Assembly: GCA_022703445.1 (NCBI GenBank)
Contig: JAKLDR010000005.1
Location: forward strand, 36,107-100,106
DNA from: Planctomycetota bacterium
GTDB lineage: Bacteria; Planctomycetota; SZUA-567; JAKLDR01
Reading direction: 5' to 3'
Length of the DNA stretch: 64,000 nucleotides
The notes beneath the pieces were generated by a model. The model was not told where the DNA came from. It did no database searches and worked only from the letters and a program-made list of their open reading frames with translations. Within the stretch, counting starts at the first letter, position 1. Every line of letters begins with the position of its first letter. This document shows, one piece after another, positions 13,761 through 50,367 of the stretch. A program made the position numbers and the translations under genes.

Positions 13761-16496
13761 TTACTTCCTCCCGGCCACCTCCGCGCAAAGCGCGAAGAGC
13801 CGGTCATCGCGCTCCTGCCAGCCGGAGCACTCCATGGCCAGCCAGCGGTTGCCGGCCCGCGAGCTCTCCTGGCCGCGCAGGAAGTACCGGGCGCGCTCGT
13901 CGAGCAATTCCACGATCTTCCTGTTGAGCTCGGGCGCCACGCGCTTCTCCTCCTGGGCGCGCTCCAGGAAGATGATGGCCTCGGCCACCTGCACGCCCTC
14001 CCGGAACATCTCCATGCGCTGGTTGAAGACCGCCCCGTCCGGACCGGCGCTGAAGAGCGCCGTGGTGCTCTCGCCCGGGCCGACCGCCTTGAAAGTGTCG
14101 AATAGCACCACGGGCTTGCCGCCCTTGTCGCTGGGGATCATCCAGGAGTCGCCGCCCACCCGCCCGAGGCCGTTGAGGTTGCCCTGCAGCGTGGCCTCGC
14201 TGATGAAGCGGTGCATGGCCAGCGTCGAGGTCTCCCGCAGGGAGTCGCCGATGATCACGGACAGGCCCATCCGCGGATTGCCGAACTCGCGCCGCTTGTT
14301 GCCGTTGGTCCAGAAGCGCGGATAGACCGGCCAGGGCCGGCCGCCGCCGTCCGGGTCGTAGGCGAAGCCGCAGCCCCAGACCCACTCGCTGTAGGGCACC
14401 GGCATGCTGACGCCCTTGGCCGTGCCGGCGAAGGCGCTGATGTTGGGGTGGCTGGTCTGCATCCACTTGCCGTCGGGCCAGATGTTCCTGCAGACGTCGA
14501 CGACCGTCGGGTGCGGGCCGACCGCGTAGTTGATGTGGCAAACCGCGGTCACATCCCACCATCCCCGCTTCTCGAGGCGTTTCCGGAGTTCGGCCAGGAC
14601 CGGCTTCCAGAAGGCCTCGTTCTCGGGCGTGCCGTAAGGCGGCTGGGCCATGGGTTCGACCTTGCCGGTGGCCGGGTCAAGGACGCTGACCGGCGCGCCC
14701 TTGGCGATGCCGACGTCCTTGGCGTTGCCCGCGCAGTTCGGCCAGGGATCGAGGCAGAGGATCGCCGGCTTGCCGCAGTTCTTCTCGTAGAGGTCCATGT
14801 ACTTCTCGGCGATGCTGAAGTCGTAGTCATAGGCCGCTTGCCCTGAGCCCGTCGAAGGGTCCGGCTTCCGGACCCAGCGGACCATCGATTCCGAGTTGTT
14901 GAAGCTCGGGCTGTTGGCCACCAGGTGGACCATGCAGAGCTTGTTGCCGACCTCGCCGAAGGCCTTGAGCGACCTGCCCATCAGCTCGAAGTGCTTCTCG
15001 CTCCAGAGCGGGACCTTGTAGTGCCGCGCCACCGAGTCCACCGACTGGAAGATGTTGTGGTGCGTCGTGAAGTCCCGCGCGTCCGGAATCCGCCAGTCGT
15101 TCACCTTGAGCCTGACGGGCACGGAGAACTTCGCCGGGCCGGCGGTGCCCGCGGCTTCGATGGAGAGCGTCGCCTGATACTCGCCGGCTGCGGAGTCGGC
15201 CGGTACCCGGACCGTCACCCACACCGGCACGACTGCGAGTAGGCGGCGGTCGCCCAGCAGCTTGGCCTGGGGGATGTCGGCCGGGAAGTTGCCCTGCAGG
15301 CGGTCGAAGTTCACCCGGCCCAGCGGGTCCCAGTGCGACAGGTTCACGTTCTCGGCCGAGACTCGCTCGGCCCAGCGCACCTGGACGGCGGAGGCCGGGA
15401 TCTGGCCCTTGCCCCCGGTCAGCGCCAACTCCGAGAGGCTGGCCTTCAAGCCTTTTATCGTATCGGCCGAGCTCAGGACGACCTTTCCGGAGAAGGTCCC
15501 GTTGCGCGCGCCGACCATCCGGATGGGCAGGACCTGGCCGCTCTCGCTGGGGTTGACGATGTCGGCGGCCGAGAGCGTCTCGCAGGGCGAGACCGTGGCG
15601 ATCTCGACGGCCGGCGTCGGAGAGTAGTTGGGCGTCAGCCCGTCGCCGCTCGAGGCCGTGAGCCGGGCGGCGGCCGCGAGCGCGTGCGGCCAGACCGCCG
15701 ACTGGCCCGGCCAGGACTTGTCCCCGACCGTCTTCTCGACGGCCAGCTCGTGCACCGGCGCGGCGCGGATCTCCACGGCCAGGACATTGAGCCCCTTGCG
15801 GAGCATCGCGCCCGGGATGACCACGCCGTCGGGCGCGCCCTTGGCCGGGAGCCCCCGGCCACGGACCCTGGCCAGCTCGGCCACGGCCCACTGGTTCTCG
15901 GCGCCCGGCCGGATCTTCCCGTCAGCGGTGATGTAGGCCTCGTCGGCGTAGCGCTCGGCGAGCGTCTCGGGCTCGAGCTTGCCGGCCGGGAGGTGTCCGC
16001 GGGCCAGTTCGGCGCCGTTCACGTAGACGACCGCGCCGCCGAAGTAGGTCAGTGACACCTTGAGGTCCTTGACCGCGGCCGGGTCGGCCACCCGGAACTT
16101 CCCGCGCAGGCAGACCAGGCTGCCCTCCAACGGGTTGGCGGGCCCGTAGGCCGAGGCGCTCGGCCAGCGGTTGAGCGCCGCGGGGTCGGAGATCCGCGGC
16201 CAGCAGGAGTCGTCGAAGTCGACGGCCGCCCAGTCCGCCGGCGGCGGCGCCGAGCCGCGCACCGGCACCGGCTTGCGGTCCTCCTCCTTGAGGTCCTTGC
16301 GCCGGGGCTCGAGCAGGGGCTTGAGCTTGCCGTCCGCTGAGATCAGCGTCGGCGTCCTCCAGCCCTCGAAGACCCGGAAGGAGCCGCGGTTCAGGTCCAG
16401 GACCACGGTCTCGGTCGGGGTCTTGGCCGGCTCGGCGGCGGACCCCGCGCCGGCGAACGCCAGCGCCGACACCAGTGTCAGCATCAGGTGTCTCAT
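13761..16496 (-). CDS. secreted DUF4091/GH123-like glycoside-hydrolase-domain protein, paralog 1 of 4
   Basis: ORF 13761..16700. Start set at MRHLMLTLVSALAFAGAGSA (signal peptide), where the ATG overlaps the upstream stop as ATGA. It has a GH2-sugar-binding-like segment GSLVCLRGKFRV...GGAVVYVNGAELARGHLP, then WVTVRVPADSAAGEYQATLSIEA...KVNDWRIP. The family assignment is from memory and uncertain. Confidence 0.8.
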   Translation of the reverse strand: MRHLMLTLVSALAFAGAGSAAEPAKTPTETVVLDLNRGSFRVFEGWRTPTLISADGKLKPLLEPRRKDLKEEDRKPVPVRGSAPPPADWAAVDFDDSCWPRISDPAALNRWPSASAYGPANPLEGSLVCLRGKFRVADPAAVKDLKVSLTYFGGAVVYVNGAELARGHLPAGKLEPETLAERYADEAYITADGKIRPGAENQWAVAELARVRGRGLPAKGAPDGVVIPGAMLRKGLNVLAVEIRAAPVHELAVEKTVGDKSWPGQSAVWPHALAAAARLTASSGDGLTPNYSPTPAVEIATVSPCETLSAADIVNPSESGQVLPIRMVGARNGTFSGKVVLSSADTIKGLKASLSELALTGGKGQIPASAVQVRWAERVSAENVNLSHWDPLGRVNFDRLQGNFPADIPQAKLLGDRRLLAVVPVWVTVRVPADSAAGEYQATLSIEAAGTAGPAKFSVPVRLKVNDWRIPDARDFTTHHNIFQSVDSVARHYKVPLWSEKHFELMGRSLKAFGEVGNKLCMVHLVANSPSFNNSESMVRWVRKPDPSTGSGQAAYDYDFSIAEKYMDLYEKNCGKPAILCLDPWPNCAGNAKDVGIAKGAPVSVLDPATGKVEPMAQPPYGTPENEAFWKPVLAELRKRLEKRGWWDVTAVCHINYAVGPHPTVVDVCRNIWPDGKWMQTSHPNISAFAGTAKGVSMPVPYSEWVWGCGFAYDPDGGGRPWPVYPRFWTNGNKRREFGNPRMGLSVIIGDSLRETSTLAMHRFISEATLQGNLNGLGRVGGDSWMIPSDKGGKPVVLFDTFKAVGPGESTTALFSAGPDGAVFNQRMEMFREGVQVAEAIIFLERAQEEKRVAPELNRKIVELLDERARYFLRGQESSRAGNRWLAMECSGWQERDDRLFALCAEVAGRK

Positions 16497-17422
16497 GCGT
16501 ATCTCCTCAGCAGCCGCCGGACGATCCCGTGGACCGCCTCCGGGTCCTCGTTGTTGTGGGCGTAGTAGTAGACCGCCAGGTGGTCGGGCCGGTAGTTCTG
16601 CAGGTAGGCTTCGAAGTTGGCCTCGAACTCCGGGACGGCCTCCTTGGGCATGAGCATGTTCTCGACCAGCGCGAAGGTCTTCTTCCCGGCGGCGGCGCAC
16701 TCATTGACGGTGCGCTCCCACATGGACTCGATGCGGTGCTTGACCCACTTGGGCTCCTCGTGGAAGAAGCTCTGGCGGGCCAGGTTCCCGTCGTAGCCGA
16801 AGTACTCCACGCCGGGGGCCGCGGCCGCACGCTGCGTGAAGTACTCCCGGTCGCGCATCGCGAAGAAGGTGATGCTCAGCCCCGGCTTGACCGCCAGGCA
16901 GTGCCGGTTCAGGTCGCCGATGAACTCGATGGCGGAGTCCATCATGTTCTCCCGGGTGGGGTCGGGCCCGAAACGCGCCACGGTCGCCGGGTGGCGGTGG
17001 ACCATGGCGACCTCCTTCATCTCGTCCCAGATGATGCCGTCGAGTTCGTAGTCGGTCAGCAGCGTGGTCATGAAACCCTTGATCCAGTCGACGAAGGCCG
17101 GCGCCTCCAGCGCCGCCACCGGCAGCCAGGGGTCGGCCGGCGCCACGCACTCGGGGTGTTCGTAGAGCCAGATGCTGGGCATGAGCGGCGCCCCGGCGAA
17201 GCGCCCGCCCAGGCGGCTGGGCACCACCAGGACCTTGAGCCCGCGCTTCCTGGCCAGGTTGACCTGGATCTCGAAGGCCCGGCGCGAGTAGACCATCTCG
17301 CTCTCGCTGAAGGACAAAGCCACGGCGTCGAAGCCGCAGTCGACCATATCGGCGAAGTTCTCGTCGAGGTGATGCGGGATCACCGTGAAGTGGCCGTGGC
17401 TCAGGGTGTAGGCGGTCAGCAT
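16493..17422 (-). CDS. hypothetical cytoplasmic protein, possibly a (beta/alpha)8-barrel glycosidase-like fold
   Basis: 309-aa ORF with no signal peptide. Alternating hydrophobic-strand/helix pattern and a DGIIWDE motif. The fold call is an inference only. There is a 4-bp ATGA overlap with the downstream gene. Confidence 0.7.
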   Translation of the reverse strand: MLTAYTLSHGHFTVIPHHLDENFADMVDCGFDAVALSFSESEMVYSRRAFEIQVNLARKRGLKVLVVPSRLGGRFAGAPLMPSIWLYEHPECVAPADPWLPVAALEAPAFVDWIKGFMTTLLTDYELDGIIWDEMKEVAMVHRHPATVARFGPDPTRENMMDSAIEFIGDLNRHCLAVKPGLSITFFAMRDREYFTQRAAAAPGVEYFGYDGNLARQSFFHEEPKWVKHRIESMWERTVNECAAAGKKTFALVENMLMPKEAVPEFEANFEAYLQNYRPDHLAVYYYAHNNEDPEAVHGIVRRLLRRYA

Positions 17423-17438
17423 GCTGGGGCTCCTCGTG

Positions 17439-17542
17439 GTCAGGTGTCAGGTTTCAGGTGTCAGGTGTCAGCACGGAGTCTCTGACACCCCTTCGACGCT
17501 GCTCAGGGCCTTGAGCTTGTCGAAAGGCTGAACACTGGAACC
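17439..17542. repeat. nested-palindrome intergenic repeat, copy 1 (GGTGTCAG/GGTTTCAG words flanking a CCTTCGAC..GCTCAGGG palindrome)
   Basis: Inner palindrome at 17488-17527 (CCCTTCGACGCTGCTCAGGG / CCTTGAGCTTGTCGAAAGG). A second stem GGTGTCAG..CTGACACC and outer arms built from tandem TCAGGTG/TCAGGTT words. Its reverse complement recurs at 28461-28582. Confidence 0.85.
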
Positions 17543-17548
17543 TCTCCG

Positions 17549-20200
17549 TCACTTTACCTCACACGTCTCTTCGGCGGCGTACTTCCGGTCGACGCGCACG
17601 ACGCGGCGGCTGTAGAGGTCGCCGACGTAGATCTTCTTCTCGCTCGCGCCGGCCGAGAGCGGCCAGCCCAGCGGCACCTCCGGCGTGGCGATCAGCGGCT
17701 TCTTGTCCGCCGAGCCCTCCGGCACCCACTGCGAGTCGAAGTTGCCGTAGGCGCCGAACTTGGTTATCTCGTTGCCGGCGTTGTCCAGCACGCGCACGTC
17801 GAACGTGCAGGTGTTGGGGATCACCAGCCGGCCGTAGGCGTCCAGGTCGAAGCGCGGCGAGCGGCAGACGCAGCCGCCCGGCTCCTTCGTGGGGGTGGCG
17901 CCGCTGAACGAGCCGTAGCCCGGATAGGCCCCGGCCACTCCTTCGTATTCGGCCAGGCGGTCCCGCTTGCCCTTGGGCAGGCCGCCGCCCTCCGGCTTGA
18001 ATTTGACCACGCTGCCGATGCCGCTCTGGAAGGCGGCGTCGCCCTCGAAGCCCGCCGGCGGCTTGTAGCCCTCGGGCAGAAGGTTCATGCCCACGTAGAC
18101 GAAGCCCCGCCGGTCCACCTTGAGTCCGCCGCAGGCCCCCGGGACCAGGCCGATCAGCGCGCTGTTGATGCCCCGGTCGGCCAGCGGCCTGAGGTCACCG
18201 TGGTCGGGCTGGGTCTTGAGGCGCTCGATCTGCGCGGTGCAGACCTTCGGGCCGGGGATGAACTTGCCGTCGCGGTCGTAGGTGACCACGTAGTAGTCGC
18301 CCCAGGCGAGCAAGCCCATCGAGTAGAGCCGGCCGTCCCAGCCCAGGCACGAGCCCTTGGTGCAGTAGCCCTGGCCGTAGCGGCCGAAGACCCAGCCGAT
18401 GGTGTCGCTCTTGGTGGCGGCCAGCGGGGCGGGCTTGAGGTCCCGGTCCATCCGCTTGTAGGCGCCGGAGAAACCCGTTTTCCCATCCTGGATGTAGACG
18501 AATCCGTCCGGGCTGACCACCGTGTCGGTGGCGACGAGCGGATCCATCCGACCGTCCTTCATCGCCCCGTTGTACTTGCCGGTGAGGCCAGAGTAGCGGT
18601 AGGTCCGGATCCAGCCGTCGGAGACGTAGACGTCGTCGGTCTCCGGGTCCACGGTGATGCGGTCCACGCCGCGAATGGCCAACGGGTCGCGCTCGCTCAG
18701 GTCCTCGATGATCCTGAACTCGGTGCCGGCGTCCTCGATGCGCAGCAGGCCGTGGCCGGCGTTGCGGCCGTTGACGTTGGCCAGCCAGACCTGGGGCTTG
18801 GCGGCGCCGAAGTCCACGGCCAGGAAGGACTGCTGGTTCTCGGTCGTGCCCTGGAACTCGATCCGGGCCAGCTGCCTGGCGCCGGCCTCGCAGGCCGAGA
18901 ACTTGGCGAGAGTCACCTTGGCCGCCCGGCTGATGACGTAGACCGCGCCGGTTTTGTCGTCGACCACGGCCCCCTGCGCGCCGGGGAAGGGGAGGGCGCC
19001 GGTCTCCTTCCCGGCGGAGTCGAAGCGGCGCACCGCGCCGTTGGCGAAGTCGCAGACGTAGACGTTGCCCTTGGCGTCGACGGTCACGCCCTGGAGGGCG
19101 CTGGTGGCCATGCCGGGCGCCCAGCCGGCCTCGGGGGGGCGGCACTTGTCGGGGAGCGCCACGTCGGCGAAGGTCTCCATGCCCTGGCCGATCTTGTCGA
19201 GCGACATCTTGTAGACCCGCCCATCCGGGAGGTCCGGGTTGAGCTTCTGGCCCTTGTCCGCGACCCGCGCCTTGCCGGTCAGGTAGAGCGTCTTGCCGTC
19301 GGCGGCCACGGCCATGGCCGGCGAGCCGCCGATGGCGCAGTAGTCGGGGAAGCGCTTGTCGCCCTGCGGCCAGAGCGACTCGCCGAAGACGCCGCCGACC
19401 GCGCCGCCGTCCGCCGCGCGCACCCGACAGAGGACCCGGAAGCTCTCATCGATCAGCAGCAGCACGCCGTCGGGCGTGACTGCCCCCAGCTTCAGAGTCA
19501 GCGGACCGTAGGAGCGCGAGTAGCCCTTGGGCTTGGTCTCGTAGAGGTAGGCCCAGAGGCTGCCCTGGTTGCGGGGCACGAGCGCCTCGCCCGGAGCGGC
19601 GATCAGGCCGAAGGGGGCGGCGTCCTCTTTCTTCAAGTTCGCGGGGTAGGGCATGACCGTGCGCAGGTATTTGCCGGTGCGGTCGAAGACCCGGATGTCG
19701 GTCGAGCCGCCGCCGTTGTAGGCCTCCTCGCGGACGTAGAGGTTGCCCGCGGCGTCGAGGACCATGCCGCGCACCGGCGAGTAGCGCACGGTGCAGAGCG
19801 CGTAGGGGCTCGCGCCCACGAAGCCGTCGAAGACCGTCTTCGTCCCGGCGCGGACGCGGACCTTGAAGGGGCCGCCCGCGGCGGGTTTGCCGAAGTCGTC
19901 CTTCCCGTCCCAGACGATCTCCTGGACGAGCCCGGCCTTGAGCGGCTCCGGCGGCGGCTTCGGCCCGCCCAGGACGCCGGCAGCCAGGTGGCAGACGATC
20001 TTGCCGGCCGCGTCCAACACCGCCACCTCCACGTCGGTCGGCGCCGAGACGGTGAAGCTGATCTTCACCTTGCCCTGCCCTGAGCTTGTCGAAGGGTCGC
20101 CTTCCTTCGCGGCGGCCGGCTTGGCGGTGAAGGCCGCCTCGCCGGCGGTGGCCGTCGTAGCCATGATGAGCCCCGTCATCACGATTAGTGCGCTGCGCAT
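17549..20200 (-). CDS. secreted FlgD-Ig-like + NHL/beta-propeller repeat protein, paralog 1 of 2
   Basis: ORF 17549..20293. Start at MRSALIVMTGLIMATTATAGEAAF (SD AGGAGAG). The N-terminal KVKISFTVSAPTDVEVAVLDAAGK...WDGKDD resembles the FlgD Ig-like domain. NHL-like strands follow, e.g. DAKGNVYVCDFANGAVRRFD. Confidence 0.8.
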   Translation of the reverse strand: MRSALIVMTGLIMATTATAGEAAFTAKPAAAKEGDPSTSSGQGKVKISFTVSAPTDVEVAVLDAAGKIVCHLAAGVLGGPKPPPEPLKAGLVQEIVWDGKDDFGKPAAGGPFKVRVRAGTKTVFDGFVGASPYALCTVRYSPVRGMVLDAAGNLYVREEAYNGGGSTDIRVFDRTGKYLRTVMPYPANLKKEDAAPFGLIAAPGEALVPRNQGSLWAYLYETKPKGYSRSYGPLTLKLGAVTPDGVLLLIDESFRVLCRVRAADGGAVGGVFGESLWPQGDKRFPDYCAIGGSPAMAVAADGKTLYLTGKARVADKGQKLNPDLPDGRVYKMSLDKIGQGMETFADVALPDKCRPPEAGWAPGMATSALQGVTVDAKGNVYVCDFANGAVRRFDSAGKETGALPFPGAQGAVVDDKTGAVYVISRAAKVTLAKFSACEAGARQLARIEFQGTTENQQSFLAVDFGAAKPQVWLANVNGRNAGHGLLRIEDAGTEFRIIEDLSERDPLAIRGVDRITVDPETDDVYVSDGWIRTYRYSGLTGKYNGAMKDGRMDPLVATDTVVSPDGFVYIQDGKTGFSGAYKRMDRDLKPAPLAATKSDTIGWVFGRYGQGYCTKGSCLGWDGRLYSMGLLAWGDYYVVTYDRDGKFIPGPKVCTAQIERLKTQPDHGDLRPLADRGINSALIGLVPGACGGLKVDRRGFVYVGMNLLPEGYKPPAGFEGDAAFQSGIGSVVKFKPEGGGLPKGKRDRLAEYEGVAGAYPGYGSFSGATPTKEPGGCVCRSPRFDLDAYGRLVIPNTCTFDVRVLDNAGNEITKFGAYGNFDSQWVPEGSADKKPLIATPEVPLGWPLSAGASEKKIYVGDLYSRRVVRVDRKYAAEETCEVK

Positions 20201-20225
20201 CGGTCTCTCTCCTGTCCAGAACCCG

Positions 20226-20312: not shown

Positions 20313-20326
20313 GTCGCCGTGCTCCG

Positions 20327-24355: not shown

Positions 24356-24406
24356 CGTCTCCTCCATTCAGCTCAGTGCCTTAGTGCCTCAGTCCCTCAG
24401 TGCCTT
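24281..24406. repeat. CAGTGCCT-word palindromic element, copy A, spanning a gene boundary
   Basis: Arm 24281-24316 (GTACTGAGGCACCAAGGCACTGAGGCACTTAGTGCG) is complementary to arm 24372-24406 (CTCAGTGCCTTAGTGCCTCAGTCCCTCAGTGCCTT). The 55-nt loop holds the SD and start of the 23078 gene. Arm 2 covers the last 7-8 codons and the stop of the regulator gene. Confidence 0.85.
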
Positions 24407-25496: not shown

Positions 25497-25655
25497 GGTG
25501 CCAACCTCCTGCCAACATAGTACCCCACGCGGCCAGAAGTGTTGGCGGGAAAAAGTGCTTACAAAACCAGCTGGAACTGAGTTCCTCGGTCAACTGCCCG
25601 TGACCATCTGCCACGCAGAGCTTGGCGGCTCCGTTGTGGTTGACAGGCGCCCGGC

Positions 25656-41803: not shown

Positions 41804-41807
41804 GTCC

Positions 41808-44123: not shown

Positions 44124-44145
44124 CTCACTTCCCCACCACCATCGC

Positions 44146-46716
44146 CTACTTCAGCTCCGCGTATTCCGCCGTGGCCGGATCGAACCGCAGCGCGAAGACC
44201 TGGAAGCCCAGGTCGGGCGCTGGACCGAGGAGAAACACGAGTTTGCGTTTCGGGTGGTACATCAGGCCGCTGCCGATGAAGCCGCCGGGCGCCTGGACGT
44301 TCTTCGGCTTCAGGCGCACGCTCTTCCATTCGTTCCCGGCCACGTCGTAGAGGTAGTGCCAGTCCGCGCCGCCGGCGAGGAAGAGCACCGCGTCCGCCTC
44401 TGGAAGGTAGATGGACTCGCGCGCCGTCTCGGCCTCGAACCTCACCTTGTCGGCGTTCTTCGGCTTGAGTTCAGCGATCTCGGTGGTCTTGAAATCGTAG
44501 CTCCAGACCACGCCCTCCTTGAGGGAGCCGTAACCCTTGCCGTTGGCGCAGTACAGGCGGTCGCGCTTGCTGTCGTAGCTGTACGCGGCGGAGAAACCGC
44601 AGAAGCCGTCGGGCCACTTGCCCTGCGCCGGCATGGGCACCCAGCCCTTGGTGGCGTCGAAGCGCTTCACTCCGCCGCCGATGAGGCCGTGCGGGGTGGC
44701 CACGAAGTTGGCGACGCCAATCGGGAAGGAAGTCTTGTCCCAGGCCCGGCGCGCCGGGTCATACATGTACGCGCCGGATGAGGAGTGGATCACGGCGCGC
44801 TTGCTGGCCGCGTCGTAGGCGCAGCGGTGGTAGGTGTGCATGCCCATCCAGGGGCGGCCGTCGAAGTCGGTGCCGGGGAATCCGCTGCAGGCACCCTCGT
44901 GGGTGAGCGGATGGGAGGGCCGGTAGCTGATGCTCCAGGTGTTCGCCTTGATGGAGTACAGCGCCAGGTCGTTGCCGCAGTAGCCGGCGTGACCGCCGCG
45001 CCACCAGATGAGTTGGTCGGTGTCTGGATCGAGGATGCAGGTGCCCCAGTTGCCGTAGCCGCCCGGATTGCCAGAGTTCTTGGCCGTGATCATGGTCCAG
45101 GTGTTGGCCGGCAGCTTGGCGAGGCGTTCCTCGGCGGCGGCGCTCTCCTCGGCCGGTTCGCGGTCGCAGGGGCCGGGTCCGCCGAAGAAGGTCACGGTGT
45201 TGGGCTTGACCCCGTATTTCGCGGTCCCGGCGGCGTCGGCCTTCGCCGCATCCAGGCGGCAGGCCCAGGTGCTGAACTTCCGTTCGTTGACCCAGTACCC
45301 GATCTCCCCGAGCCCCACCAGGAGATCGTCCGGCCCCGCCGCGAAGGCCGAGAGGCCGGTGTTGCACAGCTCGGCCGGCGGCGCGCCGGTGTTGTCCTCG
45401 ACGTGCTGGAGCAGCGCCCAGCGGTCCGCCGCGAGGTCGTAGGTCCAGAGCTCGAAGGGCAGCGTCTCATAGAGCCCCTGCTTGCCCCGCGCCTGATTGG
45501 GCAGGTAGCCGCGGCCGGCCAGCAGCACGGTCTTGGCCTTGGGCAGCCAGACCAGCGCGTGTCCGGCCCGCGGGCCCGGTCCGACCGGCGGGTGCTGCTG
45601 CATCCAGCGGGACTTGGCCGGGTCGAAGGTCCAGGTGTCGGAATAAGCCCGGCTGTAGCCATCGCCCCCGAAGGTCACGACCTTCCTGGCCACGGGATGC
45701 CAGAGAAGCGGACTGTTGCCGCGCGGCGGCGGCTCGACGGCGAGTTCGTCGCGGGCGCTGCGCAGGATCTCCGTGAGGCCGTCCTGCAGGGTGGTCAGGG
45801 TGGGGACGTCGAGCCGGCCGCCGAGCTTCTTGAACTCGCTCTCGGCGATCTTGAGCGCCTCCGCCAGCGCCGCCTTGGCCCGGGCGAGCTGCTGGGTCTC
45901 GTAGTCGTCGGCGCCCTTGGCGGCGCCCAGGGTCGCGCCGGCGGCCGTGACGGCGGCGACCAGCTCCGCGCCCATCTTCTCGAGGCTCAGCTTGGCGGTC
46001 TCGGCGGATTCGGTGCGATAGTGCCGGTTGCGGCAGGCGGCCACCAGATCCTGGCCCTGGACGTAGAGCTTGTGCAGGTCGGCCCGGCGGTCGTTGATGA
46101 GCGGCGAGCCGAACTTGAGCTCCCGCCACTCGTTGCTCTTCGGGCTGTAGAGCCAGGTGCCGGAGCCGCCCAGAGGCGCGGCGCCGTTGGCCAGCATGAC
46201 CTCGCCGCTCTCCGGCAGCCAGCACAGGGTGGCCCAGCGGGTGAAAGCCTCGCCGTTCCTCGGCGGCGCATTCTTGGATGCCGGATTCGTCCAGGTCTTC
46301 TGCGCATAGTCGAAACTTAACAGGTTTTTGCCCCAGGTGTCCGATCCGATGTATCCGTAGCCCCGGTCGGTCGCCGGATCCCAGGCCAGGAAGCAGTTGG
46401 AGGATTCGTTGAGCAGCTTGTTCGGCCCCTGGCCGGGCTTGGCCTCCTCCCACTTGCCGGTGGTCGGGTCGAACAGCATCTCCGCGGTCTTGCCGTTGTA
46501 GCCGGTGAGCAGGAACTTGCCGGCGCTCGCCACGTAGGTGAGCCCGCAGCCCGGGCTCCTGCCGTCCTTGGTCATGCCTTCGTCCAGCTTGACCCAGGCG
46601 TTGGGCGCAGCCTGGGCGATTTGAGGACAGAGCTCTCCGGACTTGGCCGGCGACTCTCCGCCGCGAGCTGCCACCATCGTCGCGGCCAGGGCCAGGGGCA
46701 ATGCCATCTGCTTCAT
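44146..46716 (-). CDS. secreted Kelch-type beta-propeller protein with helical insertion, paralog 4 of 4 (most divergent)
   Basis: ORF 44146..46827. Start at MKQMALPLALAATMVAARGGESP (ATG 46716, GAGGAG 6 nt upstream). VVTFGGDGYSRAYSDTWTFDP. Confidence 0.8.
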   Translation of the reverse strand: MKQMALPLALAATMVAARGGESPAKSGELCPQIAQAAPNAWVKLDEGMTKDGRSPGCGLTYVASAGKFLLTGYNGKTAEMLFDPTTGKWEEAKPGQGPNKLLNESSNCFLAWDPATDRGYGYIGSDTWGKNLLSFDYAQKTWTNPASKNAPPRNGEAFTRWATLCWLPESGEVMLANGAAPLGGSGTWLYSPKSNEWRELKFGSPLINDRRADLHKLYVQGQDLVAACRNRHYRTESAETAKLSLEKMGAELVAAVTAAGATLGAAKGADDYETQQLARAKAALAEALKIAESEFKKLGGRLDVPTLTTLQDGLTEILRSARDELAVEPPPRGNSPLLWHPVARKVVTFGGDGYSRAYSDTWTFDPAKSRWMQQHPPVGPGPRAGHALVWLPKAKTVLLAGRGYLPNQARGKQGLYETLPFELWTYDLAADRWALLQHVEDNTGAPPAELCNTGLSAFAAGPDDLLVGLGEIGYWVNERKFSTWACRLDAAKADAAGTAKYGVKPNTVTFFGGPGPCDREPAEESAAAEERLAKLPANTWTMITAKNSGNPGGYGNWGTCILDPDTDQLIWWRGGHAGYCGNDLALYSIKANTWSISYRPSHPLTHEGACSGFPGTDFDGRPWMGMHTYHRCAYDAASKRAVIHSSSGAYMYDPARRAWDKTSFPIGVANFVATPHGLIGGGVKRFDATKGWVPMPAQGKWPDGFCGFSAAYSYDSKRDRLYCANGKGYGSLKEGVVWSYDFKTTEIAELKPKNADKVRFEAETARESIYLPEADAVLFLAGGADWHYLYDVAGNEWKSVRLKPKNVQAPGGFIGSGLMYHPKRKLVFLLGPAPDLGFQVFALRFDPATAEYAELK

Positions 46717-46726
46717 GGTCATCTCC

Positions 46727-49270
46727 TCAGGTCTTCCGTTCGAGGCGAAGAGTGACGATCTCCCACGCCCGCACCGCGAACTCGGCGACACCGCCGCGAA
46801 CGGCGAGTTCCCGGCCCTCGCGCTCAAGCAGGTTGACGCGCTCGGCGCGGCGCACCCACGCCGGCAGCCGGACGCGCACGCACCCAGCGCGGCCGCGGTG
46901 CTCGGCCAGGCGCAGGATGAGCGCGCCGCCCTCCTCGGCCGGCTTGAGCGCCGCGACGTAGACGTGGTCCGACTCCACGGCCGGCATCTCGGGCAGCCGG
47001 ACCTCGCCGGCGACGGCCAGCATGCCGGCGTTGTAGAGCCCGGCGTCGGCCTCGACGGAGCTCTCCAGGAGCGCCCCGCGGTAGCCGGTCACCGCGTACT
47101 CCAGGCGGTGGCGGCCCTCGTCACGCATGCCGTCGTAGCCGGTCATCACGTAGGACTCCGGCTCGTGCAGGTAGGTCGGGTAGGCCGGGCTCCTGAGCAG
47201 CGAGAGCAGGATCGTCGAGCGGCCCCGGCCGGCCGGCTCTATGCGGTAGGAAGGCAGGCCGCGATTGAGGACGGCGACGGAGAAGCCCTTGGCATCCAGC
47301 CCCGCCCAGTTGATCGCCGGCCAGTCACCGCCGGCCGCCTTCCAGTTGAACCACGGCTTGTAGACCGGCCGCTCGAGCGCGCCGTAGGGTATCCCGTAGA
47401 GGTGCCGGCCCGTCGCCGGCACCGGCACGGCGGCGCGCAGACGGGTGTTGCAGGCGTGCCACTCGACCTCGACGGCCACGTCGATGCGCTCGATTCCGGA
47501 GGTCAGCGTCACGGTGGTCCACGCCCGGGCCTTGTGATCGTTGGCCAGCCGATCGATGTCCACCTCGAACCGCAGGGTCTGCCGCGCCCCGCAGCGCTCG
47601 GCGGAGACGAGCTTGGTCTGGCCGACGAGCGCGGTTCGCTCCTGCGAGGGCTTGATCGTCGCCCAGGGCGAGCCCTCGTCCTCCTCGAGGATCAGCTCGA
47701 AGGGCCGGTAGGCGCCGGGGGCGAGCAGCGCCCGGCCCAGGCGCTTGTCGAAAACCCGGCGCACGCCGTGCGCGTCGGCTTCGATGCGGAAGCGCGCGTT
47801 CTCGATGCGCGGGACGCGGAGCTTCCGGACCGCCGGGGCCGGCGCGGGGCGGAAACGGAAGCTCGCGGCGGAGAACGCCGGCACGGCCGGGGCCGCGAAG
47901 GTCACGCGGGCGCGAGCTCCCGGCAGGCGCTCGACGGCCGCGACGGGGAGCAACCGGCCGGCGGCGTCCTCGATCCTGGCACCGGCGGAGGCCAGCGGCA
48001 GCTCGGCGGTCGCGAGCGTCGGCCGGGAGAAGCCGGTGAGGTTGACCAGCGAGAAGCTCCCGCGCCGGGGCGAACTCAGCCGCCGCAGGGACTTCGCCGC
48101 AAGGCCCGCGGTGCGCCCGGCCAGCTCGGCGTTGATGTCCATCAGCTCGTCGTAGGCCGCGTCGACGTGCGTGCCGGTGACGGCGTCGTGGAAGGCGGTG
48201 AAGAGCAGCTGCTCCCAGCACTTGGCGAGAGCCGCGCGCGGCGGAGTCGCGCCGCACAGGGCGGCGGCCGCGGCCAACATCTCGGCACCGAGCAGGGCGT
48301 ATTCGGCGCGGCGCAGTTCCTGCTTCAGGCGGATGCGGGTGACGTAGCAGCCGGAGTTATTGGGGTTGACCTCGGCGCTCGAGTGCAGCTCACGCTCCGG
48401 AACGGAGTCGACGCGGGCCAGGCGCCCGGCCAGGAGCGGAAGAGCCTCGGACTCGACGGCGAAGCGCGCGTCGAGCCCGCGCGCGCTTCGGCGCAGCCAG
48501 GCGACGGCGTCGGGATTGGGCAGGAGTTCCTCCGGGGACAGCTCGACGAAGGCCCGGCCCTTGCGCTCCACCAGCCCGCGGTCGAAGTCGAGCAGCTTGG
48601 CCCGGGGCGCGGAGTCGAAGCCCCGGCCGCCGCAGCGCCGGCAGCCGCGCCCCGCGCAGCTCGGGCACGGCGGGTACTTGTCGTAGCCGGCCAGGATCCC
48701 GGCGCGCGGCAGCCCCCGCCCGCAGACCGTGCTGCCGTCCAGGCCCCGCCAGTACTCGGCGTCGAGCTCGGAGTAGGTCAGGCCGGTGACGAGCTTCAGG
48801 CCGCAGCCCCGGACGATCTGGGGCAGCTGGGCGCTGTTGCCGAAGGCGTCGTTGCGGACGACGAGCGCCGCGCGCTGGCCGAGGTGCTTCTCGAGCCAGA
48901 GAAACCCGGTCACGAAGTTCCTGGCCAGCGTCTCGCCCAGCACCAGGTTGCCGTCCACGATGTTGTCGCCGGCGCCCGAGACCTCGAAGCGCCCGGCGGC
49001 GGCCAACCGCCGAAGTTCGGCGCGGCGCTCCGGCCGGCGCTCCAGGAACTTGCGGACCACCGCGGTGCACTCGGCCATGAACTTGTACCCGGGGTGGCGC
49101 CGGGCGATGGCCAGGTTCTCAAGCATGTAGGCCTCCTCGATGTCGGCGTAGGAGGCATAGGTCTGCCCGTTCCAGGTGAAGCGGCGGTCCCAGCAGCGGC
49201 GCCAGGTGAGGTCGAAGTGGTTGTTGACCAGCACGTGGAGCACTGGTCGGGTCGGGAGACGAGAGCTCAT
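46727..49270 (-). CDS. glycoside hydrolase family 38 (alpha-mannosidase-like), no signal peptide
   Basis: ORF 46727..49756. Start at MSSRLPTRPVLHVLVNNHFDLTW (ATG 49270, ATGA overlap with the regulator stop). GRFEVSGAGDNIVDGNLVLGETLARNFVTGFLWLEKHLG...RNDAFGNSAQLPQIV matches the GH38 N-terminal catalytic region. Confidence 0.8.
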   Translation of the reverse strand: MSSRLPTRPVLHVLVNNHFDLTWRRCWDRRFTWNGQTYASYADIEEAYMLENLAIARRHPGYKFMAECTAVVRKFLERRPERRAELRRLAAAGRFEVSGAGDNIVDGNLVLGETLARNFVTGFLWLEKHLGQRAALVVRNDAFGNSAQLPQIVRGCGLKLVTGLTYSELDAEYWRGLDGSTVCGRGLPRAGILAGYDKYPPCPSCAGRGCRRCGGRGFDSAPRAKLLDFDRGLVERKGRAFVELSPEELLPNPDAVAWLRRSARGLDARFAVESEALPLLAGRLARVDSVPERELHSSAEVNPNNSGCYVTRIRLKQELRRAEYALLGAEMLAAAAALCGATPPRAALAKCWEQLLFTAFHDAVTGTHVDAAYDELMDINAELAGRTAGLAAKSLRRLSSPRRGSFSLVNLTGFSRPTLATAELPLASAGARIEDAAGRLLPVAAVERLPGARARVTFAAPAVPAFSAASFRFRPAPAPAVRKLRVPRIENARFRIEADAHGVRRVFDKRLGRALLAPGAYRPFELILEEDEGSPWATIKPSQERTALVGQTKLVSAERCGARQTLRFEVDIDRLANDHKARAWTTVTLTSGIERIDVAVEVEWHACNTRLRAAVPVPATGRHLYGIPYGALERPVYKPWFNWKAAGGDWPAINWAGLDAKGFSVAVLNRGLPSYRIEPAGRGRSTILLSLLRSPAYPTYLHEPESYVMTGYDGMRDEGRHRLEYAVTGYRGALLESSVEADAGLYNAGMLAVAGEVRLPEMPAVESDHVYVAALKPAEEGGALILRLAEHRGRAGCVRVRLPAWVRRAERVNLLEREGRELAVRGGVAEFAVRAWEIVTLRLERKT

Positions 49271-50367
49271 GACTTGCCTTTCTCCGCCGGCCGCAGCCGC
49301 ACCGGCACCTTGATGAGCGTCGGCGGCATCTCCGGCCTGGCCCGGCGCTCGGCCAGCCGGACGATGGTCAGCCGGGCGAGCTCGGCTATGCTCCAGACCA
49401 TGGTGGGCGGCACCGAGCCCCTGAAGCTCGCGCTGTAGGCGCCGCCGTAGAGTTCCTCGGTGCACCAGCCGACGAGCTCGAGATCCCGGCCGAGGCTCAG
49501 GCCCAGCTCCCCGGCCGCCGCGGCGAGCTCGGCGGCGGCGTCGTGCCAGAGCCCGAGCACGGCGGTGGGGCGCTCGCCGAGGCTCAGGAGTCTCCGGGCC
49601 GCCGCGGGCGTCTCCGGCCAGGGCGTGTCCCGCATGTACTCCGGCCGGAACTCGACGCCCGCCGCGGCCAGCGCCGCCGCGACGCCGCCGTAGCGCTCCT
49701 GGCTCTGCACGCTCTCCGAGATCCGGCCGAGCCAGGCGATCCTCCGGTGGCCGCAAGCGAGGAGGTGCTTCGTGGCGGCCATCGCGCCCTGGAAAGAGTC
49801 CTGGACCACCGCGTCCAGGCTCATCTCCGGACTCCAGGCGTCCATCATCACCGCCGGCAGGCGCACCCGGCCGACCTCGGCCAGCAGCTCGGGTTTGGCG
49901 ACGTCGAGCACCATGCCGCAGGCCCGGCAGTCGCGGAGCTGCTCCATGATCTGCGCCGGCGAACGCCCCCCGATGCCGATGGCCAGCATCGACCAGCCGC
50001 GGTCCGCCGCCGCCTGCTGCAGGCAGGCGAAGAGCATGCGCGAGAAGTCGTCCCAGAGCTCGGTCTTCTCCGCGCCGCCCAACACGAAGGCGATGGGCAG
50101 CCCGCGCTCCGGGTCGTTGACTCGGGCCAGGACCCGGAAGCCCTGACGCGGCTCGGAGGCCACCAGGCCCTCGGCCTCGAGCTGTTTGGCGGCGCGCCGC
50201 GCCGTCTCGGGAGCGACGCCGTGGGTCGCGGCCAGTTGCTTGTTGGACGGCAGAATCTCGCCGACTCCGATCTCGCCGTTCAGGATCGACTGCCGCAGCT
50301 TGCCTGCCAACTCGACGTAACCGATTGCCTCCAAGACCGATCCATCTGCACGCCGCGTGACCACCAT
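49267..50367 (-). CDS. GntR-type HTH fused to a LacI/PBP-like sugar-binding domain, regulator 2
   Basis: ORF 49267..50571. Start at MVVTRRADGS (ATG 50367, AGGAGG upstream). LPSNKQLAATHGVAPETARRAAKQLEAEGLVASEPRQGFRV. Collinear with regulator 1. Confidence 0.85.
   Translation of the reverse strand: MVVTRRADGSVLEAIGYVELAGKLRQSILNGEIGVGEILPSNKQLAATHGVAPETARRAAKQLEAEGLVASEPRQGFRVLARVNDPERGLPIAFVLGGAEKTELWDDFSRMLFACLQQAAADRGWSMLAIGIGGRSPAQIMEQLRDCRACGMVLDVAKPELLAEVGRVRLPAVMMDAWSPEMSLDAVVQDSFQGAMAATKHLLACGHRRIAWLGRISESVQSQERYGGVAAALAAAGVEFRPEYMRDTPWPETPAAARRLLSLGERPTAVLGLWHDAAAELAAAAGELGLSLGRDLELVGWCTEELYGGAYSASFRGSVPPTMVWSIAELARLTIVRLAERRARPEMPPTLIKVPVRLRPAEKGKS

What the first reader, a model, noticed from the sequence alone, without database searches (positions are those of the whole stretch)
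13761..50367. 36.6-kb single-strand locus of 17 genes dominated by secreted beta-propeller and DUF4091-like paralogs, with GH38, a heparinase-like protein and two embedded regulators but no transporter
Seen: 17 consecutive minus-strand CDS with gaps of 180 bp or less and overlaps ATGA at 16493-16496, 35104-35107 and 49267-49270 (a GTGA at 32603-32606 applies only if the 31464 gene starts at the track's GTG 32606 rather than my preferred ATG 32582). The families are 4 DUF4091-like, 4 Kelch with a helical insert, 2 FlgD-Ig+NHL, 2 small propellers, GH38, a heparinase II/III-like protein, a TIM-like protein and 2 GntR-HTH/PBP regulators. The content looks like two partly duplicated modules: regulator-propeller-DUF4091-NHL-TIM-DUF4091, and regulator-GH38-Kelch x4-lyase-NHL-propeller-DUF4091 x2. 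Twelve proteins carry signal peptides. There is no SusC/D, ABC, MFS or TonB gene. Established knowledge: beta-propellers are the catalytic fold of several polysaccharide lyase/hydrolase families (PL11, PL22, PL24/25, GH145/PL42). GH127, adjacent at 10776-12710, acts on beta-L-arabinofuranosides. Inference: this is an extracellular degradation system for an unidentified, probably uronic-acid- or arabinose-containing glycan. The Kelch, NHL and small-propeller families are candidates for undescribed enzyme families.
Basis: partly seen in the sequence, partly recalled or inferred. Interest (0 to 1): 0.7.

Follow-up and report, generated by a model that had tools for sequence, protein, structure and literature searches.

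The report
Planctomycete sugar-regulated cluster of unknown secreted proteins
A 36.6-kb run of 17 same-strand genes in an uncultured Planctomycetota genome mixes three recognisable sugar-cutting enzymes and two sugar-sensing repressors with twelve secreted proteins from uncharacterised families that keep turning up side by side in other genomes, so it is a good but unproven source of new carbohydrate-active protein families.

Summary
In detail: there are 17 minus-strand genes (13761-50367) with gaps of 179 nt or less, three ATGA overlaps and 12 signal peptides, and none of the 17 proteins has a transporter domain in Pfam.

The family calls are mostly right but need correcting.
- The four 'DUF4091' proteins match GH123 domains but lack the catalytic Asp-Glu pair (VH, VH, DD, IN). 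So do all 114 full-length relatives examined.
- The 'NHL' proteins model as an Ig domain plus a double beta-propeller.
- The Kelch model has a helical insert (residues 108-234).
- Neither propeller model matches a solved enzyme.
- The 'heparinase-like' protein keeps the residues I recall as the PL15 catalytic His, Arg, Tyr and His.
- The GH38 nucleophile motif is conserved.
- The 'TIM-like' fold and the two 'small propellers' could not be verified.

The whole 17-gene set is not conserved. The pairings are: the double-propeller family lies next to DE-less GH123-like genes in 19-21 of about 78 loci, and next to Kelch genes in 12-13 of 79. Neighbours are almost always on the same strand, often with the same GntR-HTH/sugar-binding regulator.

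Best reading (about 0.5): a two-module, sugar-induced cluster for breaking down an unidentified uronate- and mannose-containing glycan. The secreted families may be enzymes or only binding proteins. Interest is moderate.

The parts
49267..50367 (-). g17: regulator with a GntR-type HTH and a LacI-type sugar-binding (PBP) domain. First gene of module B. Its stop overlaps the GH38 start (ATGA).
   Evidence: Pfam GntR 5.7e-15, Peripla_BP_3 8.4e-15, Peripla_BP_1 3e-14. It is 57% identical to g6.
46727..49270 (-). g16: GH38 alpha-mannosidase-like enzyme without a signal peptide, so presumably cytoplasmic.
   Evidence: All four GH38 Pfam domains match. PDB hits include Ams1 and bacterial GH38 proteins. 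The nucleophile motif RNDAFGNS aligns to DTFGYS of Ams1.
44146..46722 (-). g15: divergent secreted Kelch protein (858 aa).
   Evidence: Pfam Kelch_KLHDC2 1.1e-18. It is about 30% identical to g12-g14. Signal-peptide heuristic.
41808..44072 (-). g14: secreted Kelch protein with a helical insert. It is a recent paralogue of g13.
   Evidence: Pfam Kelch 3e-18. It is 65% identical to g13. Its 5' end overlaps a palindromic repeat.
39484..41682 (-). g13: secreted Kelch beta-propeller with a helical insert (residues 108-234).
   Evidence: AlphaFold2 model with pLDDT 90.7. Foldseek against the PDB returns only generic Kelch domains. Relatives are mainly in Planctomycetota.
37079..39304 (-). g12: secreted Kelch protein with a helical insert.
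   Evidence: Pfam Kelch 7.9e-17. It is 42% identical to g13. Its orthologue in the nearest MAG is 90% identical.
35104..37068 (-). g11: PL15/PL35-like polysaccharide or oligosaccharide lyase without a signal peptide.
   Evidence: phmmer against the PDB: 8khv 6.5e-13, 8khw 9.2e-13, PL15 Atu3025 (3a0o) 9.6e-10, PL35 chondroitinase 9o3q 1.8e-9. The His/Arg (AKHNWRS, from residue 180), Tyr (EGPGYW, 232) and His-x-His (INHCHLD, 378) positions are conserved.
32603..35107 (-). g10: secreted protein with an Ig-like domain followed by a double beta-propeller (the 'FlgD-Ig + NHL' family).
   Evidence: Pfam FlgD_ig and SGL just below cut-off. AlphaFold2 pLDDT 89.7. Foldseek returns only generic tandem propellers. 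It is 100% identical to PK280_05895 of a Planctomycetota MAG.
31464..32582 (-). g9: secreted 372-aa protein with no family assignment.
   Evidence: No Pfam, NCBIfam or PDB hit. Orthologues lie next to Kelch or GH123-like genes in L005, L008 and L091.
28588..31332 (-). g8: secreted GH123-like (DUF4091) protein lacking the catalytic Asp-Glu pair (it has Val-His).
   Evidence: Pfam GH123_cat 1.1e-19. Alignment to 5l7v and 5fqe. Family survey.
25656..28442 (-). g7: secreted GH123-like protein lacking Asp-Glu (Val-His, in GWVHYS from residue 665). Last gene of module B.
   Evidence: It is 67% identical to g8.
25497..25655 (-). Non-palindromic 159-nt gap with a short hairpin plus T-run at 25585-25573. 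Likely boundary between the two transcription units and promoter region of g6.
   Evidence: Terminator-like match on the minus strand. The fold z-score is only -1.4, unlike the other long gaps. This is an inference.
24381..25496 (-). g6: second GntR-HTH/LacI-type PBP regulator. First gene of module A.
   Evidence: Pfam Peripla_BP_1 7.3e-19, GntR 4e-15. NCBIfam sugar-repressor models match below their cut-offs.
23078..24355 (-). g5: secreted 425-aa protein with a weak Kelch signal.
   Evidence: Pfam Kelch_KLHDC2 E 0.008, below cut-off. The N-terminal peptide KRTKCLSALVPQ, shared with g14, is encoded by a repeat element.
20327..23068 (-). g4: secreted GH123-like protein with Asp-Asp in place of Asp-Glu.
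17549..20200 (-). g3: second secreted Ig + double-propeller protein.
   Evidence: Pfam SGL 1.7e-6, NHL 3.7e-4, FlgD_ig 1.8e-5. It is 37.5% identical to g10.
16493..17422 (-). g2: 309-aa protein without a signal peptide. It belongs to a family with no Pfam domain that is 55-67% identical across several phyla.
   Evidence: no hits. (homologues). (sugar-catabolic neighbourhoods).
13761..16496 (-). g1: secreted GH123-like protein with Ile-Asn in place of Asp-Glu. Last gene of the locus.
13687..13760 (.). Strong hairpin between the convergent g1 and the AraC-type gene, marking the end of the locus.
   Evidence: Fold energy -41.8 kcal/mol, z = -5.5.

Best explanation
This is a two-module, sugar-inducible gene cluster of an uncultured Planctomycetota bacterium. 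It most likely breaks down an unidentified acidic heteroglycan containing uronic acid and probably alpha-mannose.

Proposed working, all inferred:
- Each module starts with a repressor that has a GntR-type DNA-binding head and a LacI-type sugar-binding body (g17 and g6). Each repressor would release its module when a breakdown product binds.
- Twelve proteins are exported past the cytoplasmic membrane: four GH123-like barrels without the usual catalytic pair, four Kelch propellers with a helical insert, two Ig + double-propeller proteins, and two smaller proteins. They would bind and depolymerise the polymer at the cell surface or in the periplasm.
- Fragments would enter through a transporter encoded elsewhere.
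- Three proteins without signal peptides would finish the job: a PL15/PL35-like lyase (g11), a GH38 alpha-mannosidase (g16) and the conserved g2 enzyme.

Shown: gene structure, family assignments, loss of the GH123 catalytic pair, retention of the lyase and GH38 motifs, confident folds, and recurrent same-strand neighbourhood of the uncharacterised families.

Inferred: catalysis by the secreted families, the substrate, the cellular location and the regulatory logic.
For: - Gene structure and overlaps.
- GH38 has all four domains and a conserved nucleophile motif.
- g11 matches PL35 and PL15 structures at E 6.5e-13 to 1e-9. The positions I recall as Atu3025 H311, R314, Y365 and H531 are conserved.
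- Both regulators carry LacI-type sugar-binding domains.
- All 38 GH123-like family members tested carry GH123_cat and the GH123 N-terminal domain, so the scaffold derives from a glycosidase. The family also has its own conserved polar residues: H695 is invariant, and E787, D803 and R764 are at least 94% conserved.
- Some Kelch-insert modules are fused behind a complete GH33-type sialidase domain with YRIP, five Asp boxes and FYERG.
- Around GH123-like homologues, the double-propeller family is present in 19 of 79 loci by tblastn, or 21 of 77 unique loci by clustering. Of its genes, 32 are on the same strand and 1 is opposite. Regulators are 10 same-strand and 0 opposite; Kelch genes are 6 and 0.
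- Around Kelch homologues, the double-propeller family is in 12-13 of 79 loci and the regulator in 8-9.
- A second locus in the same genome reads double-propeller x4, regulator, Kelch.
- The g2 family neighbours LacI regulators, GH3, a heparinase-type lyase, a sulfatase, an SSF symporter, GH106 and rhamnose/fucose catabolic genes in other phyla.
Against: - No secreted protein has a demonstrable catalytic site.
- The GH123 Asp-Glu pair is absent, and that position is not even conserved in the family.
- Both propeller models match only generic scaffolds that mediate protein interactions.
- No transporter, sulfatase, esterase or sugar-catabolic pathway gene lies in the locus.
- Apart from the double-propeller family and the regulator, the neighbours of Kelch homologues are typical planctomycete proteins of unknown function, not CAZymes.
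- Gene content differs even in the nearest relative.
- Most long intergenic gaps hold very stable hairpins, so co-transcription is not assured.
- No expression or biochemical data exist.
Confidence: 0.5

Rival explanations
1. This is a glycan-capture locus rather than a depolymerisation locus. The DE-less GH123-like proteins are pseudo-enzymes, and the Kelch and double-propeller proteins are lectin-like binders. They would play the role that SusD and surface glycan-binding proteins play in Bacteroidota. Only GH38, the lyase and g2 would be catalytic.
For: - The catalytic pair is lost and that position is variable.
- The propeller models resemble only binding scaffolds.
- Fusion of the Kelch module to a sialidase is the position usually taken by carbohydrate-binding modules (my own knowledge of GH33 architectures).
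- Tandem, diverging paralogues fit a diversifying binding specificity.
Against: - Each family has many invariant Asp, Glu, His and Arg residues outside the repeat motifs.
- About 900-aa multidomain proteins in four copies are large for simple binders.
- With no endo-acting enzyme in the locus, the polymer would never be cut.
Confidence: 0.22
2. The locus is not one functional system. It is a patchwork of lineage-specific expanded families brought together by tandem duplication and repeat-mediated rearrangement. The secreted proteins would serve cell-surface or envelope functions unrelated to GH38 and the lyase.
For: - The full gene set is not conserved, and the nearest MAG lacks five of the genes.
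- The same families occur in several other loci of the same and the related genome.
- Repeat elements sit in most long gaps, including a 99% identical 67-nt pair.
- Y1 transposase genes lie next door.
- Most Kelch homologues stand alone among unrelated genes.
Against: - The family-family associations recur across phyla and are almost always on the same strand: 32 to 1, 10 to 0 and 6 to 0.
- A sugar-binding regulator repeatedly accompanies them.
- Start-stop overlaps link unlike families: regulator with GH38, lyase with double-propeller, and g2 with a GH123-like gene.
Confidence: 0.15
3. The secreted proteins act on a non-carbohydrate substrate. One example would be lactones or esters hydrolysed by the SGL/NHL-type propellers. 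Another would be peptides or phenolics. In this reading the sugar-type regulators are misleading.
For: - The weak SGL (gluconolactonase-type) and ScyE-family hits for g3 and g10.
- The top Kelch structural matches include the Fe-dependent epithiospecifier and thiocyanate-forming proteins.
- A large C10 protease with Kelch and RCC1 propellers lies nearby.
Against: - Those hits are at or below the curated cut-offs and are generic to the fold.
- The GH123-derived barrel, the sialidase fusion, GH38, the lyase and the LacI-type effector domains all point to sugars.
Confidence: 0.08

Closest known systems
GH123 and related DUF4091 beta-N-acetylgalactosaminidases (BvGH123 5l7v, CpNga123 5fqe, the Nga groups of Sumida et al. 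2024, PMC11087588)
   Same: They share the N-terminal beta-sandwich and the first half of the GH123 catalytic-domain profile. E-values are 7e-33 to BvGH123 and 1.6e-18 to CpNga123. The Tyr, His and Asp positions Y462, H522 and D572 are shared.
   Different: - The Asp-Glu pair that defines the substrate-assisted mechanism is replaced by VH, VH, DD and IN. It is never DE in 114 relatives. By contrast, it is conserved in 94% of 734 DUF4091 proteins (PMC11087588).
- The Pfam match stops at profile position about 157 of 324, just before that site.
- An extra, conserved N-terminal region of about 330 aa is present.
PL15 oligo-alginate lyase Atu3025 and PL35 glycosaminoglycan lyases (8khv, 8khw, 9o3q)
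   Same: Sequence similarity spans the helical and beta-sandwich parts. The His/Arg, Tyr and His-x-His positions are conserved.
   Different: - Identity is low, and the Pfam Hepar_II_III_C score is below its cut-off.
- g11 has His where the PL35 structures have Asn, so it is closer to PL15 at that site.
- The substrate is unknown, and there is no signal peptide.
Bacteroidota polysaccharide utilisation loci and the CAZyme gene clusters reported in Planctomycetota (PMC11131199)
   Same: Degradative enzymes are co-localised on one strand with a dedicated sugar-sensing regulator, and many products are secreted. About a third of the genes in planctomycete clusters are reported as unassigned.
   Different: - There is no SusC/SusD pair and no transporter of any kind.
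- Only 3 of the 17 genes are recognisable active CAZymes.
- The regulators are GntR-HTH/PBP hybrids rather than hybrid two-component or ECF sigma systems.
Beta-propeller polysaccharide lyases and hydrolases (PL11, PL22, PL24/25, GH145/PL42)
   Same: They share the beta-propeller fold class and, for many members, secretion.
   Different: None of these appears among the top 50 structural matches of either model or in the sequence searches. The helical insert and the Ig + double-propeller layout have no counterpart among the matches returned.
GH38 alpha-mannosidases (yeast Ams1, Streptococcus GH38 2wyh)
   Same: All four GH38 domains and the nucleophile motif are present.
   Different: Identity is low. 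There is a Cys-rich insert (CPSCAGRGCRRCGGRG). The NCBIfam mannosylglycerate hydrolase score is far below its cut-off.

Membership tests
GH123 (beta-N-acetylgalactosaminidase) | GH123 N-terminal beta-sandwich plus DUF4091/GH123_cat domain | tested here: met
   PF13320 at 1e-18 to 2e-23 and PF22680 in all four paralogues. Both are present in 38 of 38 family members. The PF13320 match covers only profile positions 2 to about 157-177 of 324.
GH123 (beta-N-acetylgalactosaminidase) | Adjacent catalytic Asp-Glu pair (CpNga123 ISMDERS, BvGH123 IAMDERP) for substrate-assisted catalysis | tested here: not met
   The aligned residues are VH (g7, g8), DD (g4) and IN (g1). None of 114 full-length relatives has DE.
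GH38 alpha-mannosidase | Four-domain GH38 architecture | tested here: met
   PF01074, PF09261, PF07748 and PF17677 all score above their cut-offs.
GH38 alpha-mannosidase | Catalytic nucleophile Asp in the D-x-F-G-x-S motif and the N-terminal His-x-Asp metal site | tested here: met
   RNDAFGNS aligns with DTFGYS of Ams1. NNHFD starts at residue 16. The role of the metal-site residues rests on my recall of GH38 structures.
PL15 / PL35 (heparinase II/III-like) lyases | Significant sequence similarity to solved members | tested here: met
   8khv 6.5e-13, 8khw 9.2e-13, 3a0o 9.6e-10, 9o3q 1.8e-9. The Pfam Hepar_II_III_C score of 18.2 bits is below its 24-bit cut-off.
PL15 / PL35 (heparinase II/III-like) lyases | Catalytic His/Tyr and the second His of Atu3025 (H311, Y365, H531; residue roles recalled from the literature) | tested here: met
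   The aligned g11 motifs AKHNWRS, EGPGYW and INHCHLD keep all of them. The third motif comes from a low-scoring alignment segment.
Kelch-repeat beta-propeller | Kelch repeats above the Pfam cut-off and a propeller fold | tested here: met
   PF24681 scores 61.7-69.7 bits against a cut-off of 50 for g12-g15. The AlphaFold2 model has pLDDT 90.7, and its structural matches are Kelch domains.
Bacteroidota-type PUL | Adjacent SusC-like TonB-dependent transporter and SusD-like protein | tested here: not met
   No transporter or SusD family was found in any of the 17 proteins or in the ten flanking ORFs scanned.
Beta-propeller lyases/hydrolases PL11, PL22, PL24/25, GH145/PL42 | Structural or sequence similarity to a family member | tested here: not met
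   None appears in the top 50 Foldseek matches for either model or in the PDB sequence and profile searches. Only the best 50 structural matches were visible, so weak similarity is not excluded.
Sialic-acid mutarotase NanM / galactose oxidase (Kelch enzymes) | Sequence or structural similarity to these Kelch enzymes | tested here: not met
   Neither appears in the profile search at E up to 10 or in the top 50 structural matches.
Single operon | Co-transcription of all 17 genes | not testable with these tools
   Same strand, short gaps and three overlaps favour it. Strong hairpins in at least five gaps and a terminator-like site at 25585-25573 argue for at least two units or for processing.

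The most novel reading that the evidence does not exclude
Three families would together form a previously undescribed secreted glycan-processing toolkit of Planctomycetota and their relatives. The families are the DE-less GH123-like barrels, the Ig + double-propeller proteins and the Kelch propellers with a helical insert. In this reading the GH123-like barrel has re-tooled its active site around other conserved residues (H695, E787, D803), and at least one propeller family is a new glycoside hydrolase or lyase family. All are switched on by GntR-HTH/LacI-type sugar sensors.
Probability: 0.3. Interest if true: 0.75.

Novelty: new variant of a known kind. Interest (0 to 1): 0.5.

Why it matters
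Planctomycetota and their relatives are major degraders of recalcitrant glycans. However, a 2024 genomic survey (PMC11131199) states that none of their CAZyme clusters had been characterised functionally, and reports that about a third of the clustered genes have no assignment.

This locus names concrete, abundant candidates. The GH123-like branch has at least 863 representative clusters at E up to 1e-30. That branch cannot use the known mechanism of the family. It has a constant genomic partner, and two further secreted families are linked to the same regulators.

If any of these proteins is catalytic, it would found a new CAZy family and point to a glycan that current annotation misses. If they are binders, they would show how bacteria without SusC/D capture polymers.

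A practical point follows: automated pipelines may label these proteins GH123 and so predict beta-N-acetylgalactosaminidase activity that the sequences do not support.

Tried and rejected
- **Sequence searches of the PDB** with g13, g10, g9 and g2 gave nothing useful. A Kelch profile search at E up to 10 found only eukaryotic Kelch adaptors. That rejects the idea that the family is a NanM mutarotase or a galactose-oxidase relative.
- **Foldseek of both confident models** against the PDB found only generic Kelch or tandem-propeller scaffolds, with no lyase or hydrolase.
- **NCBIfam** added nothing beyond sub-threshold hits.
- **A neighbour census** around 79 Kelch loci and 77 GH123-like loci found no recurrent CAZyme or transporter that could name the substrate.
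- **The genomic context of the sialidase-Kelch fusion** was uninformative. One GH123-like representative sat on a contig too short to use.
- **Six literature searches** (DUF4091; Kelch with Planctomycetes, CAZymes or polysaccharide lyases; NHL repeats with PULs; FlgD with propellers) found no description of these families or of a cluster with this content. A planctomycete fucoidan paper mentions none of them.
- **Rfam and tRNA scans** of the window were empty.
- **Sigma-70 promoter and intrinsic-terminator scans** were at or below chance.
- **Mapping conserved residues onto the models** was not possible, because coordinates are not returned.

Full report
**Source and gene structure**

The window has about 70% G+C. 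Frame-specific third-position GC of 0.9-1.0 identifies 17 consecutive minus-strand genes from 13761 to 50367.
- Gaps range from -4 to 179 nt.
- g10 is 100% identical to PK280_05895, and g2 to PK280_05855, both of a 'MAG TPA: Planctomycetota bacterium'.
- The GH38 protein is encoded, with the same neighbouring genes, on contigs from several metagenome assemblies.
- Twelve products have a signal-peptide-like N-terminus (crude heuristic).
- The two regulators, GH38, the lyase-like protein and g2 do not.

**Family assignments**
- Four GH123_cat (formerly DUF4091) proteins with GH123 N-terminal domains.
- Four Kelch proteins.
- Two FlgD_ig + SGL/NHL proteins, at or just below the curated cut-offs.
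- GH38 with all four domains.
- A sub-threshold Hepar_II_III_C hit.
- Two GntR-HTH + LacI-type periplasmic-binding-fold regulators.
- g2 and g9 have no Pfam, NCBIfam or PDB match, and g5 has only a weak Kelch hit.
- g5 and g9 are not detectably related to each other.

'TIM-like' and 'two small propellers' therefore remain unverified.

**The GH123-like proteins are not ordinary GH123 enzymes**

A profile of the four paralogues aligns to BvGH123 (5l7v, E 7e-33) and CpNga123 (5fqe, E 1.6e-18), straight through the catalytic Asp-Glu. In the references this reads IAMDERP and ISMDERS.
- At that pair the window proteins have Val-His (g7, g8), Asp-Asp (g4) and Ile-Asn (g1).
- Sumida et al. report the DE motif in 94% of 734 DUF4091 proteins and tie it to substrate-assisted catalysis (PMC11087588).
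- An exhaustive search found 3301 representative clusters at E up to 0.001 and 863 at E up to 1e-30.
- In 114 full-length representatives the pair is never DE, and the position is not conserved (AG, NS, SG, GS, GG and others).
- The family keeps Y462, Y513, H522 and D572, which it shares with GH123.
- It also has its own conserved polar residues. H695 is invariant, and R764, E787, D803, E850, R853 and E860 are 93-97% conserved. An extra N-terminal region of about 330 aa is also conserved.
- All 38 members tested hit GH123_cat and the GH123 N-terminal domain. In the window proteins the GH123_cat match ends just before the catalytic site.

This is a large, uncharacterised branch. It is either re-tooled or non-catalytic.

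**The propeller families**

The Kelch protein g13 gave a confident model (pLDDT 90.7, pTM 0.89).
- N-terminal strands are followed by a helical insert at residues 108-234 and then a multi-bladed propeller.
- Foldseek against the PDB returns only generic Kelch domains at about 1e-9: LZTR1, Keap1, muskelin and the epithiospecifier protein.
- A profile search does not find NanM or galactose oxidase.
- More than 200 homologues exist, and those that carry a name are mostly from Planctomycetota.
- Two homologues (P0091, P0094) carry a complete GH33-type sialidase domain in front of the whole Kelch module. That domain has YRIP, five Asp boxes and FYERG. This fusion links the family to glycoconjugates. 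It does not say whether the Kelch module binds or cleaves.

g10 also models confidently (pLDDT 89.7, pTM 0.90), as an Ig-like sandwich followed by two propellers.
- It matches only tandem-propeller scaffolds.
- Its family is large, with 889 hits at E up to 1e-5 among 8000 scored candidates. The best 120 are at least 50% identical. The named ones are almost all 'hypothetical protein', and the rest carry generic names.

**The recognisable enzymes**
- **g11** matches the structures 8khv and 8khw (about 1e-12; their assignment to PL35 is my recall), the PL35 chondroitinase 9o3q, and the PL15 oligo-alginate lyase Atu3025 (about 1e-9).
  - In the Atu3025 alignment the positions I recall as catalytic (H311/R314, Y365, H531) are conserved. 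They appear as AKHNWRS, EGPGYW and INHCHLD.
  - A beta-eliminating lyase implies a uronic-acid substrate.
- **g16** aligns to Ams1 and bacterial GH38 enzymes with the nucleophile motif conserved.
- **The g2 family** is 55-67% identical across Planctomycetota, Verrucomicrobiota (including the named species Puniceicoccus vermicola), Anaerolineae, Spirochaetes and Firmicutes.
  - In P. vermicola it precedes a sugar-phosphate-isomerase-like gene and an SSF symporter. The surrounding genes include LacI regulators, GH3, a heparinase-type lyase and a sulfatase.
  - In an Anaerolineae genome it precedes a sulfatase, GH106 and rhamnose/fucose catabolic genes.
  - That context fits a cytoplasmic sugar-processing enzyme.

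**Organisation**

The layout is two partly duplicated modules.
- Module B is g17 (regulator), GH38, four Kelch genes, the lyase, a double-propeller gene, g9 and two GH123-like genes.
- Module A is g6 (regulator), g5, a GH123-like gene, a double-propeller gene, g2 and a GH123-like gene.
- The only long gap without a palindrome is 25497-25655, between g7 and g6. It carries a short hairpin with a T-run on the coding strand, so it is a plausible unit boundary.
- Five other long gaps, and the end of the locus, hold very stable hairpins: -42 to -91 kcal/mol, with z from -3.7 to -11.5.
- Co-transcription of everything is therefore not assured.

**Comparative evidence**

The 17-gene set as a whole is not conserved.
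- The nearest genome in the species collection (CALGYR01, 88% identity for g13) reads regulator, GH38, Kelch, Kelch, g9, GH123-like, regulator, Kelch. It lacks g15, g14, the lyase, g10 and g8.

Associations between the families do recur.
- Among 79 loci centred on Kelch homologues, the double-propeller family occurs in 12-13 and the regulator in 8-9. These loci come from Planctomycetota, Verrucomicrobiota, Kiritimatiellia, Fibrobacteres and Anaerolineales MAGs. No other family exceeds 7 loci.
- Among 79 metagenomic loci centred on GH123-like homologues, many of them only 4-10 kb long, the double-propeller family occurs in 19 by tblastn, or 21 of 77 unique loci by clustering. Regulators occur in 9 and Kelch genes in 6. 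The GH123-like genes are often in tandem arrays of 2-4.
- Orientation is almost always shared with the anchor gene:

| Anchor family | Neighbour family | Same strand | Opposite strand |
|---|---|---|---|
| GH123-like | double-propeller | 32 | 1 |
| GH123-like | regulator | 10 | 0 |
| GH123-like | Kelch | 6 | 0 |
| Kelch | double-propeller | 12 | 3 |
| Kelch | regulator | 11 | 0 |

  (all)
- A contig carrying three paralogues that bear the same PK280 locus-tag prefix reads four double-propeller genes, a regulator and a Kelch gene.

The stable unit is thus a set of interchangeable parts under one type of sugar-sensing regulator, not a fixed operon.

**Interpretation**

The best-supported reading (about 0.5) is a sugar-induced catabolic cluster for an acidic, probably mannose-bearing heteroglycan. 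Export of 12 proteins, a PL15-like lyase, GH38 and g2 acting inside the cell, and an unlinked transporter fit this. The substrate cannot be named from the evidence.

The main rival (about 0.2) keeps the carbohydrate theme but makes the secreted families binders or pseudo-enzymes. Weaker rivals are a duplication-driven patchwork without common function and a non-carbohydrate substrate.

**Comparison with what is known**

The closest known systems are GH123/DUF4091 enzymes, PL15/PL35 lyases, GH38, and the CAZyme gene clusters noted but not yet characterised in Planctomycetota (PMC11131199).
- The locus fails the defining catalytic test for GH123.
- It lacks the SusC/D test for a Bacteroidota-type PUL.

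No paper in the searchable library describes these families or a cluster of this content.

**Verdict**

This is a new variant of a known kind, a non-SusCD carbohydrate gene cluster. Its main value is that it nominates three abundant, mutually associated, uncharacterised secreted families, and that it flags a GH123 annotation trap. Interest is moderate (0.5). Nothing here is mechanistically surprising yet, but the hypotheses are directly testable.

Noticed in passing
window 39320-39469, 31333-31463, 28443-28587, 20201-20326, 17423-17548, 13687-13760: Most intergenic gaps of 125 nt or more hold a long imperfect palindrome built from short oligonucleotide repeats. Each has a different sequence. 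Fold energies are -42 to -91 kcal/mol, with z-scores from -2.7 (17423-17548) to -11.5, and none has a T-run. The gap at 41683-41807 is palindromic too, but its z-score is only -1.8. Their role (RNA processing or stability, termination, or REP-like elements) is unknown.
   Followed up: partly
window 17477-17543 and 28468-28534: Two 67-nt copies, 99% complementary, of the same element lie in opposite orientation in the g3/g2 and g8/g7 gaps. They bracket 10.9 kb (g3-g7). This suggests a recently spread small mobile element and a possible substrate for inversion.
   Followed up: no
window 24296-24408 and 43985-44125: A palindromic 'GGCACTGAG' repeat element overlaps the 5' ends of g5 and g14. Two otherwise unrelated proteins therefore share the N-terminal peptide KRTKCLSALVPQ just before their signal-peptide cores.
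   Followed up: partly
window 50519-50622, 54014-54032, 50769-50864: Four copies of the 19-nt motif GACAGTYCAAWTACATAAG lie upstream of regulator g17. A fifth copy lies just upstream of a Y1 transposase gene (53074-53835). This points to REP/RAYT-type elements rather than an operator. Five tandem GGGACATCCTCGTC units lie next to them.
   Followed up: partly
window about 50400-60000: A lower-GC island (0.59-0.65, against about 0.70 elsewhere) carries two Y1_Tnp genes, a PD40 propeller protein (50865-52769), a 671-aa ankyrin-repeat protein (57879-59894) and several small ORFs. It is probably of foreign or mobile origin.
   Followed up: partly
window 2153-7261 (minus strand): A 1702-aa protein combines a Spi inhibitor-like prodomain, a C10 (streptopain-type) peptidase, several Kelch propeller regions, a BACON-like domain and an RCC1 propeller.
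   Followed up: no
N-termini of g1, g3-g5, g7-g10, g12-g15: Eleven of the twelve signal peptides end in Ala-(Gly/Ala)-(Glu/Gln). In six the mature end starts with Pro-rich GEPP or GQPP. This may be a lineage-specific cleavage or sorting motif.
   Followed up: no
window 46727-49270 (g16, from about residue 201): The GH38 protein carries a Cys-rich insert, CPSCAGRGCRRCGGRG, which resembles a zinc-ribbon.
   Followed up: no
L084 (same-sample contig k141_256273) and L042, L017, L027 (the MAG nearest in the species collection): The same genome and its nearest relative hold several further loci built from the same families. One example is four double-propeller genes, a regulator and a Kelch gene. 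This indicates a large lineage-specific expansion.
   Followed up: partly
L026:1757-5539 and six other Kelch-centred loci: A protein of about 700-1260 aa recurs next to Kelch-insert homologues in 7 of 79 loci. It combines an HZS_alpha middle domain, an FGE-sulfatase domain and an F5/8 type C domain.
   Followed up: no
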